The notes beneath the pieces were generated by a model that ran no database searches, was not told the DNA's origin, and worked only from the letters and a program-made list of their open reading frames with translations. Source: a virus (Duplodnaviria; Heunggongvirae; Uroviricota; Caudoviricetes). From it: a DNA stretch of 43,959 nt. Below, piece by piece: positions 712 through 43,236 of this stretch (the stretch's first letter is position 1; each line of letters opens with the position of its first letter). The DNA is taken from IMG/VR virus record IMGVR_UViG_2925914267_000003, positions 1 through 43,959 of that record. One strand, written 5' to 3'. The translations under genes and the position numbers were made by a program.

Positions 712-1296
712 TTACTCCCTGACAGGGTTCGTAGGCCACTCAATATCAGGTGCAGTTGATGTATCAACACGGTTCAGCAACACCCGATACTTTTTCCAGG
801 CTTCCAGCAACGAGATTTCTTCCTCCGTTGCAATTTCCAGATCTGCAGCATCCTGAAGCGGCGCAATATACTCACTGGCTACCTGCATCAGGCTGTTTTT
901 TGTTTCTTCTGCCTCCCGGATCCGGAACAGTTTTTCTGCTTCCGTATCCTTCACCCAGGCTGTGCCGTTCCACTTCTGATATTCCCCTTCCGGGGATAAC
1001 CAGGTGACATTTTCCGGTAACGAGCCAAGTTCAGAAATAAATAACGCGTCGCCGGAAGCCACGTCATAGACGGTTTTTCCCCGATGATCTTCAACGAGAT
1101 GCCACGATGCCTCATCACTATTGAAAACAGCCACAAAGCCAGCCGGAATATCTGGCGGTGCAATATCGGTACTGTTTGCTGGCAGACCTGTATGAGGCGG
1201 AATATATGCATCACCTTCACCAATAAATTCATTAGTTCCGGACAGCAGATTATAAATTTTTATGGTCCGTGGTTGTTCACTCATTCTGAATGCCAT
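712..1296 (-). CDS. tfa: tail fibre assembly protein Tfa
   Basis: 194-aa ORF directly downstream of stf with start/stop overlap; sequence recognised as lambda-type Tfa (from memory). Confidence 0.85.
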
Positions 1297-27581: not shown

Positions 27582-27656
<75 letters not shown>

Positions 27657-27659
27657 ATA

Positions 27660-27735
<76 letters not shown>

Positions 27736-27737
27736 AC

Positions 27738-27814
27738 TGGCCCGCCACCGAGGACTCGAACCTCGCACCATCAACTTAGAAGGTTGATGCTCTATCCGGA
27801 TGAGCTAGTAGCGG
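27738..27814 (-). tRNA. tRNA-Arg (anticodon UCU)
   Basis: 77-nt cloverleaf: anticodon stem TCAAC/GTTGA, loop CTTCTAA, T-arm CGAGG TTCGAGT CCTCG, 3' CCA encoded. Confidence 0.7.
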
Positions 27815-27815
27815 C

Positions 27816-27891
27816 TGGTGGCCCTTGCTGGATTTGAACCAGCGACCTGGCGATTATGAGTCGCTCGCTCTCACCACTGAGCTAAAGGGCC
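27816..27891 (-). tRNA. tRNA with CAU anticodon (Ile2/lysidine type or Met), ileX/ileZ-like
   Basis: 76-nt cloverleaf GGCCCTTTAGCTCAGTGGTGAGAGCGAGCGACTCATAATCGCCAGGTCGCTGGTTCAAATCCAGCAAGGGCCACCA; resembles E. coli ileX as remembered. Confidence 0.75.
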
Positions 27892-29137: not shown

Positions 29138-30265
29138 TTATGCTTTCCACTTCAGGACACCCGAATTTCTCGCGTGCATTAAAAAACGAATCAGCAACAA
29201 CAGCTGGCTGCCGTGTTTTTCTTCAAAATCTTTTACCCCGGCGTGCAGTTCGTTATGACATTTACGGCACAGCGGAATAACAAACAAATCATCAGCCTTT
29301 GTTCCCATCCCTCCCAGTCCATGACCAATGATGTGATGCGGATCATCTGCCTGATTACCGCACGTCATGCATTTCTGCGTTTTTACCCAGCGCGTGTATA
29401 CAGGCATCTCTTCCCGTTGTGGTTTCTGGCGCTGGAGATACTGAGCCGGTGACTCCGGATCAACGGCAATGCTTACCACCGTCTTTTCCTGTGGCGGGTT
29501 TTGCTGGTGGGCGTGAGGCAGTGGCGCAATACTTTTTGTGCGCTGCTTCAGCATGCTGGTGGCGGTCTGCTCTCCCGGCACGATGTCGCTCTCGCGGTAT
29601 ACTGAGCGAATTTTTTCCGCGCGTAATCCCAGCGAACGACGTAACACCGTCTCCGGTAGTGCGTCCGCTACGTTATTTATGGTTGCCCACCAGGATAATT
29701 CAGCCAGCGATAATTCCCGCTCCTGCGTGCCATTCATTGCGTGGCGGATGACATCAATCATCCATGCTGACAGGTTTTGGTGAGCAAGTTGCTCGAGTGA
29801 TTCGGATGTCTGGTCACGCAGCTGGTTGTCGCAGTGCCAGCACAACACCATTGCGCCGGTACCATAACGGTGAATGACGGTTTCGCTGTGATGATAATCG
29901 CCGTGTGGCCACTGGCAGGATTTAATATGGCGCAACAGCCAGTCAGACAATGCACCAGCACCACCAGCAGCACGAATCACCCGTGCGTTACTGAAAAACG
30001 GCAGCAATGTTTTGTGTTCCACCAGCGGCTGGCGAACGGCAGGGACGACTCCGGATGGCAGGCCGCACATGCTTTTCGGTTCCGGCTCCACCAGCACTCG
30101 AGGATTGTGAAATACCTGCATGGATTCACGACCTGGCTTAAGGACCACCAGCCCGAGTTCCGGTACCAGAACGGGTCGAAGTAATACCCGCACGTTACCT
30201 CCAGATCCGTTGCTGGAATGTGCGGGACGGACGCGGTGGGCGTTCGGAGTAAGGGAGCCTGACAT
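29138..30265 (-). CDS. DUF968-like protein (Qin YdfU-like) with C-terminal Cys/His cluster
   Basis: 375-aa track ORF; C-terminal CMTCGN...HHIIGHG...CRKCHNELH zinc-finger/HNH-like motif; track start overlaps the upstream gene by 70 nt, alternative internal ATG at 30121. Confidence 0.55.
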   Translation of the reverse strand: MSGSLTPNAHRVRPAHSSNGSGGNVRVLLRPVLVPELGLVVLKPGRESMQVFHNPRVLVEPEPKSMCGLPSGVVPAVRQPLVEHKTLLPFFSNARVIRAAGGAGALSDWLLRHIKSCQWPHGDYHHSETVIHRYGTGAMVLCWHCDNQLRDQTSESLEQLAHQNLSAWMIDVIRHAMNGTQERELSLAELSWWATINNVADALPETVLRRSLGLRAEKIRSVYRESDIVPGEQTATSMLKQRTKSIAPLPHAHQQNPPQEKTVVSIAVDPESPAQYLQRQKPQREEMPVYTRWVKTQKCMTCGNQADDPHHIIGHGLGGMGTKADDLFVIPLCRKCHNELHAGVKDFEEKHGSQLLLLIRFLMHARNSGVLKWKA

Positions 30266-30467
30266 AGATTATCCAGTGACGATAATCGAGGCTGAGGGCT
30301 TTCTTAATCTCGTATCCGCGTCTGCGGTAGTTATGAATTAGCCATTCGGCCTGTTCTTCAGTACATGGTGGGTGTTGGTACCAGTCGGTTTTAAATGCGT
30401 GTGAACGCCGCCCGTGCCGGATGGCAAGGTCGGTATCAGAATTGTGAAATTTGGTTTTGTGCGCCAT
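30195..30467 (-). CDS. hypothetical small protein
   Basis: track ORF trimmed to internal ATG (MAHKTKFHNSDTDLAIRHG...); 90 aa, basic. Confidence 0.4.
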   Translation of the reverse strand: MAHKTKFHNSDTDLAIRHGRRSHAFKTDWYQHPPCTEEQAEWLIHNYRRRGYEIKKALSLDYRHWIIYVRLPYSERPPRPSRTFQQRIWR

Positions 30468-30582
30468 CGGTTGTCTCTGCTGGCGCAGCAGGTGCCAGTT
30501 GTTCAGGCTGGCGTGCGAATTGTAAACCAGAATGCCAGGAAAAAACAAAACCCGCCGAAGCGGGTTTTCATTGGAAGCACCT

Positions 30583-31077
30583 TTAGTTTTGCTGTTCTAT
30601 TTTAAGCTTGATAGTTTCATACAAAACAATAGTTGCGCCTGTTTTACATAATTCCCGGCTGTCATACGCGCGAGACCAATAACACAACCAGTTCTCGAGA
30701 TCTTCTCGAGTATAGGTTTTGCAGGCCAGTCCCTCTGCCATTTCCACGATTTCATCGCCTGGTGCTGTTAACTCATAGCCATTCAACAACAAGAAGACGT
30801 AACCAGCCATCATTGCTGTGCGCTTGTTTGCATTAGCGAATGGATGATTCTGAATCAGACTTTCAATCAATACCGATGCCAGTACAAACATGTCATTAGT
30901 CTGTTCATACCATCGAACCATGCTGGGACGGGCCTGAGAAGAACTTAAGTTATCTGGACTCAGAACACCAACGGGCTCATCTGGCGTCTGTAATTCAATT
31001 AGGGAATGATTGATTTCAACAAGATCATCAACCGTAAGGTAATGCACTCCTTCAACAATCTCAGCCATAGAGCACAA
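30583..31077 (-). CDS. Doc-family (Fic fold) toxin-like protein
   Basis: 164-aa ORF containing HPFANANKRTA, matching the Doc motif H-x-F-x-(D/N)-(A/G)-N-K-R (P1 Doc HIFNDANKRTA as remembered) rather than the Fic HPFx(D/E)GNGR motif. Confidence 0.7.
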   Translation of the reverse strand: MCSMAEIVEGVHYLTVDDLVEINHSLIELQTPDEPVGVLSPDNLSSSQARPSMVRWYEQTNDMFVLASVLIESLIQNHPFANANKRTAMMAGYVFLLLNGYELTAPGDEIVEMAEGLACKTYTREDLENWLCYWSRAYDSRELCKTGATIVLYETIKLKIEQQN

Positions 31078-31086
31078 TACCCATCA

Positions 31087-31266
31087 TTACACTTTTGAAA
31101 GTTCTTCCATGGCTTTCTCATAACGAGAAAAACCGAAATCAAAAGCATTTTTCACTTGTTCACGATGTGCGCAGTTTTCATCAATCACTGGGCGAGGGAC
31201 TGCCACAACGCTTTTATCGCGAGGCGGAATACTCAACCGCGTGTGTTTTTTGAGTGGGCAGCTCAT
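31087..31266 (-). CDS. putative antitoxin partner of the Doc-like toxin (unrecognised family)
   Basis: 59-aa ORF from internal ATG (MSCPLKKHTRLSIPPRDK...) with AAAGGA SD; stop lies ~10 nt upstream of the Doc-like start; Cys/His pairs; assignment positional only. Confidence 0.35.
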   Translation of the reverse strand: MSCPLKKHTRLSIPPRDKSVVAVPRPVIDENCAHREQVKNAFDFGFSRYEKAMEELSKV

Positions 31267-31483
31267 ACTAATGAGTCCTTTTGTTTTCCGATTATTGGCA
31301 ACGCCATGCACCAAATTTGATGCAAAATAGATCTGTTTGAGATCCTTAGGATAGTCTAATGGTAGCTAAAATTACAACCTCATAATGCGACGAAAAACCC
31401 GCCGAAGCGGGTTAAGTGCGGGTGCGTTGAGGATGCCTGACACATCAGAGGCGGCGAGGGATTTCTCCCTCGCCTGGTCACTC

Positions 31484-31639
31484 TTACCCTCTAGATTCGT
31501 AGTCTACGAAGACAGCGACCTCCGTCTGGCCGGTTCGGATTCGTACCTCGCAGAGGTCTTTCCTCGTTACCAGTGCCGTCACTATGACGGTTAAACAGAT
31601 GACGATAAGGGCGATTAACATCGCCTTTTGCTGCTTCAT
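31484..31639 (-). CDS. hok: Hok/Gef family type I toxin (HokD/RelF-like)
   Basis: 51-aa peptide MKQQKAMLIALIVICLTVIVTALVTRKDLCEVRIRTGQTEVAVFVDYESRG from internal ATG of track ORF 31484-31696; single TMD plus conserved KDLCEV/RTGQTEVAVF core. Confidence 0.8.
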   Translation of the reverse strand: MKQQKAMLIALIVICLTVIVTALVTRKDLCEVRIRTGQTEVAVFVDYESRG

Positions 31640-31929
31640 AGCCTGCTTCTCCTTGCCTTTCGGCACGTAAGAGGCTAACCTACATTTGTGAGACATAGAT
31701 TGAGCCTCAGATTAATGTTAAGCGTCTTGCAGGACGCGTAATGTTAACTGGGGCTTTTCTCTATCTGCCTTTGGTGTTCATGCCTGAGACAGATAGCCTC
31801 AAGCACCCGCAGCAATTCTACTTAACTCCCCTTTCACTGCAAACCGTTTTTATCCCCAGCGGCAAATCGAATACACAACAAGTGCTACCGCCATTGCAAT
31901 TCCTGTCGTTGTGAATGCCTCCGGCCAGG

Positions 31930-32352
31930 TTATCGTAAAACATCCTCCGCGCTTATCAGCCCATTCCGCTCCAGATACCCCATCGCCATATCCGGTAATT
32001 TGCAATCTGGTTTCGCTTTTTTCAACTGACTTACCAATTGTTTAACCAGCATTGTCAACTCTTCCTCATGTGAAAGTGATGCCGGTTGCGCAGCGTACAG
32101 GGGTTTTGGCGCAATGGCTGAGTGTTTTGCGTATGCCGCAACAGATTCAGCATTGAACAAAACCATATTGTGAGCACAGGACCATGCAACTGGCATTGCT
32201 TCAAGTGAGGCAAGCGCAATACGGGCAAGCGCAAGATCCATTTCAATGGCAACTCTTGAAGTCTTAAACACGGTCTGTCGCGCAGCAAATTCCATGGATT
32301 TCACACTTTCATTAGCATGAGCAATCAATTGCTCTCTGGTAAATTTCGTCAT
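31930..32352 (-). CDS. hypothetical protein
   Basis: track ORF trimmed to ATG (MTKFTREQLIAHANE...); no recognisable motif. Confidence 0.45.
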   Translation of the reverse strand: MTKFTREQLIAHANESVKSMEFAARQTVFKTSRVAIEMDLALARIALASLEAMPVAWSCAHNMVLFNAESVAAYAKHSAIAPKPLYAAQPASLSHEEELTMLVKQLVSQLKKAKPDCKLPDMAMGYLERNGLISAEDVLR

Positions 32353-32523
32353 ATTTTTCTCATCCAGTCCTGTCGCTATGCCTGCGCAACCATTACCCCA
32401 CAATTACATCACAGGGGGTAATGGTTGCAATTCAGTGGCCACCGCGAGATTCACATCATTCACAATAAATCATAAAAATACACGCAATCACAGACCATAA
32501 TAAAAGAACTGTTTCGGCCACAA

Positions 32524-35815: not shown

Positions 35816-36241
35816 TTAGTGCATCACCAAGGCATTTCCTGCCGGGCCACCACGATTCATCTGATTGAAACCAGCGATCGCCACTGCGACAAAATCATCA
35901 GCGTCTCTCACCAGTCGTTCCCGCATCTCCACCAGCTCCCGAAAATAAGCTGAACTGTGGCTGCGCATTCTGGCCACCAGCAAAGGTGGCATTGCTTTTT
36001 CGATAGCCGGTAACAACGCCTGAATTTTTTTAACCGCATCAGGAGTATCTTTCTCCACCCAGCGGAAAATTTTCTGAGTATTGCGAGCCAGGGCTTCCGG
36101 ATGGCTGTCGTCATACAGTTCCGGGAACGTCATACCCAGCTCAAAATAAGCCCGGGTTATTTCAGCTGCCGGAACTTTTTCACCGTCCGGATGCGCCCAG
36201 GCATTCATCGCCATGCGGATGTGTTCATGCTTGATTTTCAT
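35816..36241 (-). CDS. YdaT-like protein (Rac prophage family)
   Basis: 141-aa ORF beginning MKIKHEHI..., second gene of the early rightward operon after the Cro-like gene; family call from memory. Confidence 0.5.
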   Translation of the reverse strand: MKIKHEHIRMAMNAWAHPDGEKVPAAEITRAYFELGMTFPELYDDSHPEALARNTQKIFRWVEKDTPDAVKKIQALLPAIEKAMPPLLVARMRSHSSAYFRELVEMRERLVRDADDFVAVAIAGFNQMNRGGPAGNALVMH

Positions 36242-36506
36242 GAATCAAGCTCCTAGAAAGTGGTTGTGTTAACGTTTTGGTATCTTCCAGCTCGGGCCAA
36301 ATATTCATCCAATCAAAAGGCCTTAGTTGCTGACGTGTAACTTCACCATTACTGGCTCGCTCAATAAGGACACATAACGATGCCCCTAACACTTGACCTT
36401 TACTCAATGCCTTTCTTAGATAACCGATGCTGGTACCACACTCGCATGCAAACATACGCTGTTCATCTGACGAAAGAGAATTGAGAAATATTCTTAATTC
36501 TTCCAT
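36225..36506 (-). CDS. Cro-like HTH regulator (YdaS family)
   Basis: 93-aa ORF with HTH (CGTSIGYLRKALSKGQ); AAGGAG SD 6 nt upstream; divergent from repressor gene. Confidence 0.6.
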   Translation of the reverse strand: MEELRIFLNSLSSDEQRMFACECGTSIGYLRKALSKGQVLGASLCVLIERASNGEVTRQQLRPFDWMNIWPELEDTKTLTQPLSRSLIHENQA

Positions 36507-38640: not shown

Positions 38641-38693
38641 TTTCTGGTGGCGTTTGGCGGTATCAGTTTTACTCCGTGACTGCTCTGCCGCCC
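38641..38693 (+). ncRNA. dicF: DicF small RNA
   Basis: tttctggtggcgtttggcggtatcagttttactccgtgactgctctgccgccc + T-run; differs at one position from E. coli K-12 DicF as remembered; ends in intrinsic terminator hairpin GGCGG...CCGCC; directly upstream of dicB. Confidence 0.7.
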
Positions 38694-41870: not shown

Positions 41871-42140
41871 ATGAGCGAACAGTACCTGATAACGCTCGAC
41901 GAGTGGAAACCAAAACGGTTCAGTCTCCCAATAACAAACACTACCCTGGTGAAATACGGAAAACTAGGATACATCGTTCCAAGACCACAAAAAATTCGTG
42001 GGCGTTGGCTGATAGATCGCCGGGCAGTATTTGTTGGACCTGGTGAAACGGGAATTGCGCCAGAAATTCATACTGGCGATGATAATGCACTGAAGGAGAT
42101 TTTAACTCATGTCACCGAGGCCACGAAAAAACAGCACTGA
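41871..42140 (+). CDS. excisionase-like protein
   Basis: track ORF trimmed to ATG (MSEQYLITLDEWKPKRF...); immediately upstream of and overlapping int; Xis-like YLTL.EW segment. Confidence 0.5.
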   Translation: MSEQYLITLDEWKPKRFSLPITNTTLVKYGKLGYIVPRPQKIRGRWLIDRRAVFVGPGETGIAPEIHTGDDNALKEILTHVTEATKKQH

Positions 42141-43236
42141 CGTAGCCGGTCTTTACGAAAAGTTTGATCGCAGAACTGGCAGGGTTTACTACCAGTATAA
42201 AAACCCTGTGACTGGAAAATTTCACGGTCTCGGAACAGACAAAGGCAAAGCAGAAAAAATCGCTTCCACAGCCAATCAGCGAATAGCTGCAGCAGAAGCT
42301 GAATATTTCATGCGCAAAATTGATGAAAGTCCGTCAGCAACAAAACGTCGGGGTATCAGATTAAAGGCATGGGTTGATCGATATCTGAAAATACAGGACA
42401 CGCGACTGAAAAATGGAGATATTGCAGCTACAACTCACAAAGAAAAAACTCGAATGGCTGCATACCTGGTTTCCCGTCTGGGAAACCACCCATTGAAAGA
42501 ACTGGAAGTAAGAGACTTTGCATTAATACTGGATGAGTGGCTGGATAAAGACATGGTCAGTACAGCGAGAGTAAATCGCGGATTATGGGTTGATATTTAT
42601 AAAGAAGCACAGCATGCAGGGGAAGTTCCTCCTGGATGGAATCCTCCGGAGGCCACCCGTAAACCGATCCCTAAAGTAACCAGAGCCAGACTCACCCTGG
42701 AAGACTGGCAAAAAATTTACAACGCAACGCCTGAAAAACACTTTATCCGTAACGCAATGCTCCTTGCGATTGTTACTGGTCAGCGCCGTGATGACATTTG
42801 CCACATGCGTTTTTCAGATGTGTGGAACGAACACTTGCATATCACCCAGGGAAAAACCGGAATGCGTCTGGCGTTACCGCTTACACTACGCTGTGATGCT
42901 ATTGGGATAACGTTAAAAGAAGTTATTGATGGGTGCCGAGACAGAATATTAAGTCCATATCTAATCCATAGTCGGCACCAGAAACAACCAAAGCCGATGA
43001 GTAAAGACAACCTGAGCGACTACTTCGCCAAAGCACGGGATCTGGCTGGGATAATTCCACCAGCAGGAAAAACTCCGCCAACATTTCATGAACAACGCTC
43101 CCTGTCAGAACGACTGTACCGTGCGCAGGGTATTGATACAAAAACATTACTGGGACATAAAGTTCAGGCAACCACCGATCGTTATAACGATACTCGTGGT
43201 CAGGAATGGGTTAAATGGGTTAAATTGGTTATTTAA
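42109..43236 (+). CDS. int: tyrosine integrase (lambda Int family)
   Basis: 375-aa ORF at the prophage end; catalytic-domain features (R...HxxR...Y region: LLGHKVQATTDRYNDTRGQEW) and overall lambda-Int-like layout. Confidence 0.9.
   Translation: MSPRPRKNSTDVAGLYEKFDRRTGRVYYQYKNPVTGKFHGLGTDKGKAEKIASTANQRIAAAEAEYFMRKIDESPSATKRRGIRLKAWVDRYLKIQDTRLKNGDIAATTHKEKTRMAAYLVSRLGNHPLKELEVRDFALILDEWLDKDMVSTARVNRGLWVDIYKEAQHAGEVPPGWNPPEATRKPIPKVTRARLTLEDWQKIYNATPEKHFIRNAMLLAIVTGQRRDDICHMRFSDVWNEHLHITQGKTGMRLALPLTLRCDAIGITLKEVIDGCRDRILSPYLIHSRHQKQPKPMSKDNLSDYFAKARDLAGIIPPAGKTPPTFHEQRSLSERLYRAQGIDTKTLLGHKVQATTDRYNDTRGQEWVKWVKLVI

What the first reader, a model, noticed from the sequence alone, without database searches (positions are those of the whole stretch)
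30583..31639. Doc-family toxin with an unrecognised partner, sitting directly downstream of a Hok-type toxin
A 164-aa protein carries the Doc signature HPFANANKR (Doc-type kinase motif, not the Fic AMPylation motif). Its upstream neighbour is a 59-aa Cys/His-containing ORF that does not look like Phd/YefM, so the antitoxin family is unclear. Immediately upstream again is a HokD-like type I toxin. In Qin as I remember it the order is relB-relE-hokD; here hok comes first and relBE is replaced by the Doc-like pair, an arrangement I do not recognise.
Basis: partly seen in the sequence, partly recalled or inferred. Interest (0 to 1): 0.55.

Follow-up and report, generated by a model that had tools for sequence, protein, structure and literature searches.

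The report
Doc toxin with uncatalogued mini-antitoxin
A lambdoid prophage carries an 847-bp inserted two-gene cassette encoding a Doc-type translation-blocking kinase and, just upstream, a tiny conserved protein that is always found with it and is most likely a new kind of antitoxin for Doc; the neighbouring Hok toxin is only an incidental neighbour.

Summary
All three genes lie on the minus strand:
- mok/hok, with its sok/leader region
- a 59-aa ORF (31087-31266)
- a Doc-family toxin (30583-31068/31077) with the Doc kinase motif HPFANANKR

Doc membership is solid by sequence: TIGR01550 2.7e-37, and profile hits to solved Doc structures.

The 59-aa protein matches nothing in Pfam, NCBIfam, PADLOC or the PDB. 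It is PHROG 2208, "unknown function", and public sources call it "hypothetical" or "bacteriophage" protein. It is nevertheless a real gene (dN/dS about 0.10).

In all 196 related loci I fetched, a Doc gene lies a few bases downstream on the same strand. These loci span Enterobacterales, Pseudomonas phages and metagenomes.

AlphaFold predicts a disordered N-terminal half and a C-terminal amphipathic helix. That is the architecture of the Doc-neutralising tail of Phd, but no homology to Phd is detectable and no DNA-binding domain is predicted.

The pair plus a terminator forms an 847-bp cassette bounded by two copies of the hok terminator hairpin. Thousands of E. coli genomes hold the precise empty site. 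Hok adjacency is therefore incidental.

Verdict: a type II Doc toxin-antitoxin module with an uncatalogued minimal antitoxin family. Neutralisation itself is inferred, not shown. Interest is moderate.

The parts
30547..30568 (-). Intrinsic terminator hairpin plus T-run directly after the Doc stop codon. This is the distal copy of the 20-nt repeat AAAACCCGCCGAAGCGGGTT and the right-hand end of the cassette.
   Evidence: The terminator scan reports 9 pairs followed by GTTTTTT. There are two exact copies in the window, against 0 expected by chance. It is conserved at the cassette end in loci whose downstream DNA differs.
30583..31068 (-). Doc-family toxin gene, 161 aa from the ATG at 31068. The ORF extends to a TTG at 31077, giving 164 aa.
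   Evidence: Pfam Fic 1.3e-11, TIGR01550 DOC_P1 2.7e-37, PHROG 577. The family profile matches solved Doc chains 9vzc_A at 2.2e-19 and P1 Doc 3k33 at 1.6e-7. It is 99% identical to a RefSeq 'death-on-curing family toxin' cluster.
30820..30846 (-). Codons for HPFANANKR (residues 75-83 of the 161-aa protein), the Doc-type catalytic motif.
   Evidence: Read directly from the sequence. The same columns are invariant or nearly so in 36 homologues. The motif H.F.N[AG]NKR is kept in remote metagenomic relatives.
31087..31266 (-). 59-aa candidate antitoxin gene (PHROG 2208, no other family). It is co-oriented with Doc and ends 18 nt before the Doc start codon.
   Evidence: No hit in Pfam, NCBIfam, PADLOC or the PDB. 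PHROG 2208 'unknown function' at 3.7e-40. Only 38 representative clusters among 1.84 billion proteins. Paired with Doc in 196 of 196 loci. dN/dS about 0.10.
31096..31167 (-). Codons for residues 34-57, the predicted C-terminal amphipathic helix (HREQVKNAFDFGFSRYEKAMEELS). This is the most conserved part of the family and the proposed Doc-binding element.
   Evidence: AlphaFold2 predicts helix 34-57 with block pLDDT 79-86. Positions A41, F42, F46, Y49 and L56 are conserved. dN/dS is 0.04 here against 0.18 for the N-terminal half.
31213..31230 (-). Codons for IPPRDK (residues 13-18), a second conserved motif in the predicted disordered N-terminal half.
   Evidence: I13, P14 and R16 are nearly invariant across 40 diverse members. 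The region is predicted as coil.
31307..31324 (.). Imperfect palindrome TGCATCAAATTTGGTGCA, 58 nt upstream of the small ORF. This is a candidate operator and is unproven.
   Evidence: Found by the repeat search. A [T/A]GCAC-N8-GTGCA palindrome recurs upstream of several other versions of the cassette: 24 of 60 distinct upstream regions, 0 in 54 kb of gene bodies, and a mean of 0.27 in shuffles. It is absent from many lineages, and the upstream sequences are related to one another.
31394..31413 (-). Proximal copy of the 20-nt hairpin, the native 3' stem-loop/terminator of the hok transcript. It marks the left-hand end of the cassette.
   Evidence: Exact repeat. The same hairpin follows hokD in K-12 Qin. 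Joining the two copies reconstructs a sequence present as one piece in many E. coli genomes.
31484..31696 (-). mok/hok type I toxin. Hok is 51 aa (31484-31639); the in-frame 70-aa Mok reading frame reaches 31696. It is a neighbour of the Doc cassette, not part of it.
   Evidence: Pfam HOK_GEF 1.1e-22. PHROG 251 'MokW-like'. 94% identity to K-12 HokD.
31634..31808 (-). hok leader / sok regulatory region.
   Evidence: Rfam RF01794 'sok' at 117.5 bits against a gathering score of 59. A promoter-like site TTTGCA-17-TAGAAT lies at 31843-31815 on the minus strand, just upstream.

Best explanation
The segment 30547-31413 is a self-contained type II toxin-antitoxin 'moron' (an add-on gene cassette) inserted into the early-right region of a lambdoid prophage, immediately after the hok terminator.

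The downstream gene encodes a Doc-family Fic-fold kinase. By analogy with P1, Salmonella and Enterococcus Doc, it should phosphorylate elongation factor Tu and arrest translation.

The upstream 59-aa protein is its antitoxin. It is largely disordered on its own. Its conserved C-terminal amphipathic helix (residues about 34-57) is proposed to fold onto the concave surface of Doc and hold it inactive, as the C-terminal tail of Phd does. The conserved N-terminal IPxRD motif may provide a second contact or a protease tag. The protein has no recognisable DNA-binding domain, so it would be a 'neutralisation-element-only' antitoxin.

If antitoxin synthesis stops, through loss or silencing of the prophage or host shut-off by an infecting phage, the labile antitoxin would decay and Doc would stop growth.

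Shown here:
- Doc family membership by sequence
- the strict two-gene linkage
- purifying selection on the small gene
- the predicted helix
- the cassette boundaries

Inferred, not shown:
- binding and neutralisation
- EF-Tu as the target
- antitoxin lability
- the biological role
For: - **Doc identity:** TIGR01550 at 127.6 bits against a 38.65 cut-off, Pfam Fic, motif HPFANANKR, and profile matches to solved Doc chains 9vzc_A at 2.2e-19 and 3k33 at 1.6e-7.
- **Operon layout typical of type II modules:** the small gene comes first, on the same strand, with an 18-nt gap, its own ribosome-binding site, and a terminator directly after Doc.
- **Obligate pairing:** a Doc gene lies directly downstream in 177 of 177 loci found either through the small protein or through Doc. 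These include 14 genomes from 11 named genera plus an unnamed Orbaceae bacterium, Pseudomonas phages Sirocco and LPPA56, and IMG/VR contigs. The same holds in 19 of 19 metagenome loci found through remote relatives of the small protein. Both genes are always present together in 124 E. coli genomes.
- **The small ORF is a real gene under constraint:** median dN/dS is 0.10, and 0.04 in the helix.
- **Predicted structure:** coil for residues 1-33 plus helix 34-57. Conserved hydrophobic residues fall at i, i+4, i+7, i+11 and i+14 (F42, F46, Y49, M53, L56).
- **Precedent in the literature:** a 22-residue C-terminal Phd peptide alone binds and inhibits Doc (PMC9207808). The Phd-C element alone, fused to SUMO, neutralises a Doc, and single-domain antitoxins consisting only of a neutralising element are known (PMC10440598). 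Enterococcus Phd binds Doc with a bent C-terminal helix although it has no sequence similarity to P1 Phd (PMC13034048).
- **Moron structure:** an 847-bp unit between two exact copies of the hok terminator. The reconstructed empty site matches as one piece at 97.5% identity in strain 510016 (H33), which has hokD followed directly by the next gene. 3306 genomes have a place covering at least 80% of the reconstructed empty-site sequence.
Against: - No experiment or complex model supports binding.
- The Doc monomer model was of low confidence (pLDDT 47.5), so the fold test is undecided.
- No detectable homology links the small protein to Phd. hhalign probability is 0.7%. An end-anchored ungapped comparison with Phd 52-73 scores only 4, with shuffle p about 0.03, and other registers score higher.
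- No convincing sigma-70 promoter was found for the cassette.
- The candidate operator palindrome is not universal.
- The pLDDT of the small-protein model is only 73 overall.
- The family is absent from plasmids, so a P1-like plasmid-addiction role is unlikely.
Confidence: 0.72

Rival explanations
1. The small protein is simply a degenerate or truncated Phd. That is, it is a true homologue of the Phd C-terminal neutralising tail that has lost the N-terminal DNA-binding domain, so the module is an ordinary phd-doc.
For: The position, size and predicted C-terminal helix are the same as for the Phd tail. In an end-anchored alignment, F42 and L56 fall on the Phd 'gatekeeper' residues F56 and L70 of PMC9207808. 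Phd tails are known to diverge beyond recognition (PMC13034048).
Against: hhalign probability is 0.7%. The end-anchored score is marginal, and other registers score higher. No member of the family hits PF02604 or any antitoxin model, even at E<=1. The N-terminal half carries its own motif (IPxRD), conserved from E. coli to Pseudomonas phages and metagenomes. This is not expected of a decaying remnant.
Confidence: 0.12
2. The small protein is not an antitoxin but another kind of obligate Doc partner. It could be a regulator, an activator or specificity factor, or a substrate-like peptide. In that case Doc would be controlled in some other way, or would not be growth-inhibitory in this subfamily.
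For: Neutralisation is untested. No DNA-binding domain or demonstrable Phd homology was found. This Doc subfamily has a conserved C-terminal extension (W..W.R.YD..LC) that P1 Doc lacks.
Against: The gene order, the tight spacing and the 100% co-occurrence match the type II pattern. The catalytic motif of Doc is intact and conserved, so an unopposed active kinase would be expected to be toxic. Disordered small proteins ending in a helix are the norm for antitoxin neutralising elements (PMC10440598).
Confidence: 0.1
3. hok/sok and the Doc pair form one integrated composite system, and the arrangement is functionally meaningful.
For: They are adjacent and co-oriented here and in 111 E. coli genomes. 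In Qin another type II module (relBE) also abuts hokD.
Against: A terminator separates them. The pair occurs without hok in all non-Escherichia loci and in some E. coli contexts. hok occurs without the pair at the exact empty site in thousands of genomes.
Confidence: 0.03

Closest known systems
Phd-Doc of bacteriophage P1, and its chromosomal Salmonella Typhimurium homologue
   Same: The toxin is a Doc-type Fic-fold protein with the HxFx(D/N)(A/G)NKR motif. The antitoxin gene comes first and is closely spaced. The partner is small and ends in a roughly 25-residue helix, like the Doc-neutralising tail of Phd. The module is carried by a prophage.
   Different: The partner has no detectable similarity to Phd/YefM and no predicted N-terminal DNA-binding domain. 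It is 59 aa against 73 aa. Doc is about 35 residues longer, with a conserved C-terminal extension. It is only distantly related to P1 Doc (1.6e-7 with a profile). It sits on integrated prophages and chromosomes and is never found on plasmids.
Enterococcus faecalis Phd-Doc (PDB 9VZC; PMC13034048)
   Same: This is the closest solved Doc (2.2e-19 with the family profile). That work shows a Doc partner can use a bent C-terminal helix while sharing no sequence similarity with P1 Phd.
   Different: EFPhd has a folded N-terminal beta-sheet DNA-binding domain and recognises a palindromic operator. The 59-aa protein here is predicted to be disordered before its helix. No sequence match to it was found in a search of all PDB chain sequences, a copy that includes entry 9VZC.
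PanA-Phd-C : Doc and other modular or single-domain antitoxins (NetFlax network; PMC10440598)
   Same: The principle is the same. A short linear neutralising element is sufficient to neutralise Doc and can be attached to different domains or to none.
   Different: There is no Panacea or other accessory domain here. The family itself is not named in that paper's main text. I could not search its supplementary tables for this family.
relBE-hokD of the Qin cryptic prophage (E. coli K-12)
   Same: The lambdoid backbone is the same (hokD ... DUF968/YdfU ... Q), and a type II module abuts hok. The 20-nt hok terminator hairpin is identical.
   Different: In Qin the type II module lies upstream of hokD and belongs to the RelBE family. 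Here the module lies downstream of hok, belongs to the Doc family, and is a separately bounded insertion.

Membership tests
Doc (death-on-curing) branch of the Fic/Doc superfamily | Match to the Fic/Doc domain models above their curated thresholds | tested here: met
   Pfam PF02661 scores 45.6 bits against 24. NCBIfam TIGR01550 DOC_P1 scores 127.6 bits against 38.65 and covers model positions 2-122 of 122.
Doc (death-on-curing) branch of the Fic/Doc superfamily | Doc-type active-site motif HxFx(D/N)(A/G)NKR rather than the Fic AMPylation motif HxFx(D/E)GNGRxxR | tested here: met
   HPFANANKR lies at residues 75-83. The columns H75, F77, N79, N81, K82 and R83 are invariant in 36 homologues.
Doc (death-on-curing) branch of the Fic/Doc superfamily | All-alpha Fic/Doc fold | tested here: inconclusive
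   The AlphaFold2 model has mean pLDDT 47.5, and its Foldseek matches are meaningless. Sequence-profile matches to solved Doc chains (2.2e-19 and 1.6e-7) imply the fold indirectly.
Doc (death-on-curing) branch of the Fic/Doc superfamily | Kinase activity on EF-Tu (Thr382/383) and growth arrest | not testable with these tools
   Requires toxicity and phosphorylation assays.
Phd/YefM antitoxin family | Sequence match to PF02604 or to P1 Phd | tested here: not met
   None of 40 family members has a Pfam hit to it, even at E<=1. hhalign of the family against P1 Phd gives probability 0.7%.
Phd/YefM antitoxin family | Folded N-terminal alpha/beta DNA-binding dimerisation domain | tested here: not met
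   Residues 1-33 are predicted as coil, are proline-rich, and are only 33 aa long. The model has moderate confidence, and oligomers were not modelled.
Phd/YefM antitoxin family | C-terminal helical tail that binds and neutralises Doc | tested here: inconclusive
   A conserved C-terminal amphipathic helix is predicted. Binding could not be modelled. Similarity to Phd 52-73 is not significant.
Type II toxin-antitoxin module | Two small adjacent co-oriented genes, antitoxin first, with tight spacing | tested here: met
   The gap is 18 nt here and 4-22 nt in most relatives.
Type II toxin-antitoxin module | Conserved co-occurrence of the two genes across hosts and genomic contexts | tested here: met
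   Paired in 177 of 177 loci plus 19 of 19 loci, in prophage, phage and chromosomal contexts.
Type II toxin-antitoxin module | Protein antitoxin neutralises the toxin by direct binding; the antitoxin is labile | not testable with these tools
   Needs co-expression rescue, pull-down and stability assays.
Type II toxin-antitoxin module | Autoregulated promoter with a palindromic operator | tested here: inconclusive
   A palindrome lies at 31307-31324, and related palindromes occur upstream in several but not all lineages. The scan found no clear sigma-70 promoter.
hok/sok type I system (the neighbour) | Hok/Gef toxin ORF with an overlapping mok frame and the conserved leader/sok region | tested here: met
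   Pfam HOK_GEF 1.1e-22. 94% identity to HokD. Rfam RF01794 at 117.5 bits against 59.

The most novel reading that the evidence does not exclude
The 59-aa protein founds a previously undescribed antitoxin family dedicated to one Doc subfamily. It would be a neutralising-element-only antitoxin, with no DNA-binding domain and hence no Phd-type conditional-cooperativity autoregulation. Its conserved N-terminal IPxRD motif would make a second, new kind of contact with Doc, for example at the active site or on the subfamily-specific C-terminal extension. The module would act as a prophage-borne abortive-infection or exclusion device rather than as a plasmid-addiction device.
Probability: 0.4. Interest if true: 0.5.

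Novelty: new variant of a known kind. Interest (0 to 1): 0.35.

Why it matters
Doc is one of the classic toxin families, and its regulation is understood almost entirely through Phd. A widespread Doc subfamily is present in about 2% of complete E. coli genomes, including O104:H4, and also in Salmonella, Yersinia pestis, Providencia, Xenorhabdus and Pseudomonas phages. Its obligate partner is an unannotated 59-residue protein.

This would add a new antitoxin family and fix thousands of 'hypothetical protein' annotations. It would give a very small natural Doc inhibitor for peptide-design work. It would also provide a test case for how a type II module is regulated when the antitoxin lacks a DNA-binding domain.

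It does not change the general picture of toxin-antitoxin biology. Partner swapping and minimal antitoxins are already established concepts.

Tried and rejected
1. **Complex prediction.** A read-through translation of both genes was rejected because of its stop codons. No interface model was therefore obtained.
2. **Doc monomer structure.** The model, built from a 36-sequence alignment, had pLDDT 47.5. The Foldseek search against the PDB gave only meaningless hits with E>2. I discarded both.
3. **Homology of the small protein to Phd.** hhalign gave nothing. The end-anchored resemblance I first noticed (F42/F56, L56/L70) is not statistically convincing. I keep it only as an analogy.
4. **PDB profile search with the family.** It returned only chance hits with E>0.2.
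5. **PADLOC.** It found no defence-system model for the small protein, and only sub-threshold hits (E=0.002 and 0.0046) of Doc to PDC-S23 models.
6. **Promoter search.** The consensus scan found none between the hok terminator and the small ORF. My manual candidates (TTGTAA-18-TATCCT; the conserved ATTAGACTAnnCTAA block) are weak.
7. **Operator idea.** The palindrome is enriched relative to shuffles but is not universal, and the sequences are not independent.
8. **Rem.** The gene downstream of the cassette (30195-30548) is not a Rem homologue.
9. **Literature.** I found no paper mentioning the RefSeq accessions or PHROG 2208. The Yersinia pestis addiction-toxin paper (PMC2897361) is not held, so I could not check whether the Y. 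pestis copy was ever tested.
10. **Broad family alignment.** Alignment A2 was too diverse for locus searches, so I used narrower alignments instead.
Full report
**What is there**

The region lies in the early-right arm of a complete lambdoid prophage that is read on the minus strand. The gene order is:
- integrase at 42109-43236 (+)
- YdaS/YdaT-like genes
- replication genes
- DUF1627, DUF977 and DUF4406
- a 157-aa protein of unknown function
- mok/hok
- the 59-aa ORF
- Doc
- a PHROG 1212 protein
- DUF968/HNH
- RusA
- antiterminator Q
- four tRNA genes

Doc is the ORF 30583..31077, 164 aa from a TTG. RefSeq relatives and all homologues start at the ATG at 31068, giving 161 aa. The 59-aa ORF is 31087..31266. 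It has an AAGGA ribosome-binding site, and its stop codon lies 18 nt before the Doc ATG. hok is 31484..31639 and is 94% identical to K-12 HokD. The in-frame mok extension runs to 31696, and an Rfam 'sok' match of 117.5 bits covers 31634-31808.

**The toxin**

Doc membership rests on sequence:
- Pfam Fic scores 45.6 bits against a cut-off of 24.
- NCBIfam TIGR01550 DOC_P1 scores 127.6 bits against 38.65, over the whole model.
- PHROG 577 'Doc-like toxin' matches at 2.1e-51.
- A profile of 36 homologues matches the solved Enterococcus faecalis Doc (9vzc_A) at 2.2e-19 and P1 Doc (3k33) at 1.6e-7.

The active-site loop reads HPFANANKR, encoded at 30820-30846. This fits the Doc kinase motif HxFx(D/N)(A/G)NKR and not the Fic AMPylation motif. 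These residues are invariant in the subfamily and are kept in remote metagenomic relatives.

The subfamily is 155-166 aa long. It has a conserved C-terminal extension (W..W.R.YD..LC) that the 126-aa P1 Doc lacks.

My attempt to check the fold failed. The AlphaFold2 model had mean pLDDT 47.5, and its Foldseek matches were noise. That test is undecided rather than negative.

**The partner**

The 59-aa protein has no hit in any of these libraries:
- Pfam, including all 40 diverse family members scanned at E<=1
- NCBIfam
- PADLOC
- PDB sequences, searched with the single sequence and with the family profile

It is PHROG 2208, 'unknown function'. Every public source names it 'hypothetical protein' or 'bacteriophage protein'.

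A full HMMER scan of 1.84 billion representative proteins found only 38 clusters. Most are proteins of 47-66 residues; seven are longer (69-121 aa), one is 38 aa, and one hit is a 2,917-aa protein matching only profile positions 20-44.

The family has two conserved elements. One is an N-terminal motif, L-x-I-P-x-R-D-K. The other is a C-terminal segment, Q-V-x-N-A-F-x-x-x-F-x-R-Y-E-K-A-x-E-E-L-S-K-V, which ends exactly at the C-terminus.

AlphaFold2 predicts coil for residues 1-33 and a single helix for 34-57, with block pLDDT 79-86. The conserved hydrophobic residues (F42, F46, Y49, M53, L56) form one face of that helix.

The ORF is a real gene under purifying selection. Median dN/dS is 0.10 across 32 pairs, 0.04 in the helix and 0.18 in the N-terminal half.

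C3 is not conserved. Only H34 is conserved, and C32 partly so.

**Linkage to Doc**

I fetched loci in three ways:
- Through the small protein: 14 genomes from Kluyvera, Serratia, Citrobacter, Hafnia, Rosenbergiella, Yersinia pestis, Morganella, Providencia, Xenorhabdus and an Orbaceae bacterium, plus 80 IMG/VR contigs.
- Through Doc: 80 IMG/VR contigs and three deposited phages.
- Through remote relatives of the small protein in metagenomes: 19 loci.

Every one of the 177 loci and the 19 loci has the small ORF and a Doc gene on the same strand. They are usually 4-22 nt apart. The set contains 69 distinct protein pairs.

The genomic context varies widely:
- in E. coli, the nin-like region of lambdoid prophages
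- next to the integrase at the genome end of the P2-like Pseudomonas phage Sirocco and of Pseudomonas phage LPPA56, which is unclassified below Caudoviricetes
- between flagellar genes and a DNA glycosylase gene in the Yersinia pestis chromosome

In L197 and L198 the N-terminal motif has decayed but the C-terminal helix is intact. This points to the helix as the essential element.

All 124 complete E. coli genomes that contain the module have both genes. There are 128 places, all chromosomal. The Doc subfamily is essentially absent from the plasmid collection.

**Relationship to Phd**

The architecture resembles the neutralising tail of Phd: a small protein, disordered alone, ending in a helix of about 25 residues.

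The literature shows that such a tail is sufficient:
- Phd 52-73 alone binds Salmonella Doc with picomolar affinity and inhibits it, with F56 and L70 acting as 'gatekeepers' (PMC9207808).
- A SUMO-Phd-C fusion neutralises a Doc, and single-domain antitoxins consisting only of a neutralising element exist (PMC10440598).
- Enterococcus Phd binds Doc through a bent C-terminal helix while having no sequence similarity to P1 Phd (PMC13034048).

When I anchor both C-termini, F42 and L56 of the 59-aa protein fall on Phd F56 and L70. This is not statistically convincing. The BLOSUM score is 4, the shuffle p is about 0.03, and other registers score higher. hhalign gives 0.7% probability.

I therefore claim that it probably works like the Phd tail. 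I do not claim that it is a Phd family member. The defining Phd/YefM features I could test, the sequence match and the folded N-terminal DNA-binding domain, were not met.

**The cassette and the hok neighbour**

An exact 20-nt sequence, AAAACCCGCCGAAGCGGGTT, occurs twice in the window, at 30547-30566 and 31394-31413. Chance would give none.

It is the stem-loop/terminator that follows hok, and the same hairpin follows hokD in K-12 Qin. The second copy, with a strong T-run, terminates the Doc operon.

Joining the two copies in silico gives a sequence that matches as a single piece at 97.5% identity in strain 510016 (H33). There hokD is followed directly by the PHROG 1212 gene. In all, 3306 genomes have a place covering at least 80% of this empty-site sequence.

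The 847-bp unit is therefore a discrete insertion and a classic moron. In other E. coli prophages the same cassette, with the same distal terminator, has different upstream or downstream neighbours, including one context with no hok.

Here the type II module lies downstream of hok and the backbone has no relBE. Nothing was 'replaced', and the hok adjacency looks incidental. The flanks of hok simply appear to be a favoured place for such insertions.

**Regulation**

This is the weakest part of the analysis. The consensus scan finds no sigma-70 promoter between the hok terminator and the small ORF.

Alignment of three E. coli versions of the upstream region shows a conserved block, ATTAGACTAnnCTAA, about 100 nt upstream of the start codon. 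An imperfect palindrome, TGCATCAAATTTGGTGCA, lies at 31307-31324.

Palindromes of the form [T/A]GCAC-N8-GTGCA recur upstream of several other versions. They occur in 24 of 60 distinct upstream regions, never in 54 kb of gene bodies, and at a mean of 0.27 in shuffles. They are missing in the Providencia, Xenorhabdus, Yersinia and Pseudomonas-phage versions and in the second E. coli allele. The positive cases are also related to one another.

Whether the operon is autoregulated, and by what, remains open.

**Verdict**

The locus is best explained as a type II Doc toxin-antitoxin moron whose antitoxin belongs to an uncatalogued, minimal family that is strictly specific to Doc.

This is a new variant of a known kind. 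The toxin, the operon logic and the idea of a linear helical neutralising element are all established. What is new is the antitoxin family, its apparent lack of a DNA-binding domain, and its N-terminal motif.

RefSeq already names the toxin generically and leaves the partner 'hypothetical'. I found no paper on the pair, but I could not search TADB, TASmania or the NetFlax supplementary tables.

Neutralisation, the EF-Tu target, antitoxin lability and the biological role are all inferences. Prophage retention or abortive infection is more likely than plasmid addiction, given the absence from plasmids.

Interest is moderate at 0.35. The result is useful for annotation and for Doc inhibitor and regulation studies, but it would not surprise a toxin-antitoxin specialist.

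Noticed in passing
window 31634-31808 (-): The Rfam 'sok' family (RF01794, a 157-nt model) matches on the hok-sense strand, not the antisense strand. The model seems to capture the hok mRNA leader and mok start region rather than only the roughly 64-nt antisense Sok RNA.
   Followed up: no
window 30547-30566 and 31394-31413; L178 4032-4051: The identical 20-nt hok terminator hairpin brackets the Doc cassette and also follows hokD in K-12 Qin. In Qin another type II module (relBE) abuts hokD on the other side. The flanks of hok look like a recurrent landing site for toxin-antitoxin cassettes in lambdoid prophages.
   Followed up: partly
L010 2875-3667 (Yersinia pestis NCTC5923): A copy of the small-ORF plus Doc pair sits alone between flagellar genes (fliF/fliE-like) and a DNA-3-methyladenine-glycosylase-like gene. 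This is outside any obvious prophage.
   Followed up: partly
L004 2193-2991 (Salmonella phage SW-37, CP051275.1): Both genes of the pair appear frameshifted in this deposited phage genome. The small ORF is split into two frames and Doc into three pieces. The cause is either sequencing errors or a decaying module.
   Followed up: no
L002 and L003 (Pseudomonas phages Sirocco and LPPA56): The same two-gene module, with Doc about 60% identical, lies next to the integrase at the genome end of two temperate Pseudomonas aeruginosa phages: P2-like Sirocco and LPPA56, which is unclassified below Caudoviricetes. This shows transfer between very different phage types and hosts.
   Followed up: partly
window 27582-27891 (-): Four tRNA genes lie just downstream of the Q antiterminator gene: Gly-tcc, Lys-ttt, Arg-tct and Met-cat. 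The close relative L001 carries a different set there (Gly, Lys, Ile), plus a methyltransferase and a PP2C phosphatase / Ser-Thr kinase pair.
   Followed up: no
window 38642-38693 (+) and 755-953 (-): There is a DicF sRNA match (76 bits) in the immunity-proximal region and an 'IS009' sRNA match (224 bits) near the left end of the window.
   Followed up: no
window 35816-36241 and 36225-36506 (-): YdaT_toxin and YdaS_toxin Pfam matches occur at the cII-like and cro-like positions of the immunity region. This is another pair annotated as a 'toxin' in the same prophage.
   Followed up: no
window 30195-30548 (-) and 31930-32403 (-): The genes flanking hok and the cassette are conserved phage proteins of unknown function (PHROG 1212 and PHROG 660). 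The downstream one occupies the position of rem in Qin but shows no similarity to Rem.
   Followed up: partly
E. coli genomes: Two antitoxin alleles, MSCPLKKHTRLS... and MSYALKKHPRLT..., are about 88% identical and circulate in E. coli with Doc proteins that are 94-99% identical. The differences are concentrated in the N-terminal half and in the upstream region. The O104:H4 outbreak lineage carries a 91.5%-identical cassette.
   Followed up: no
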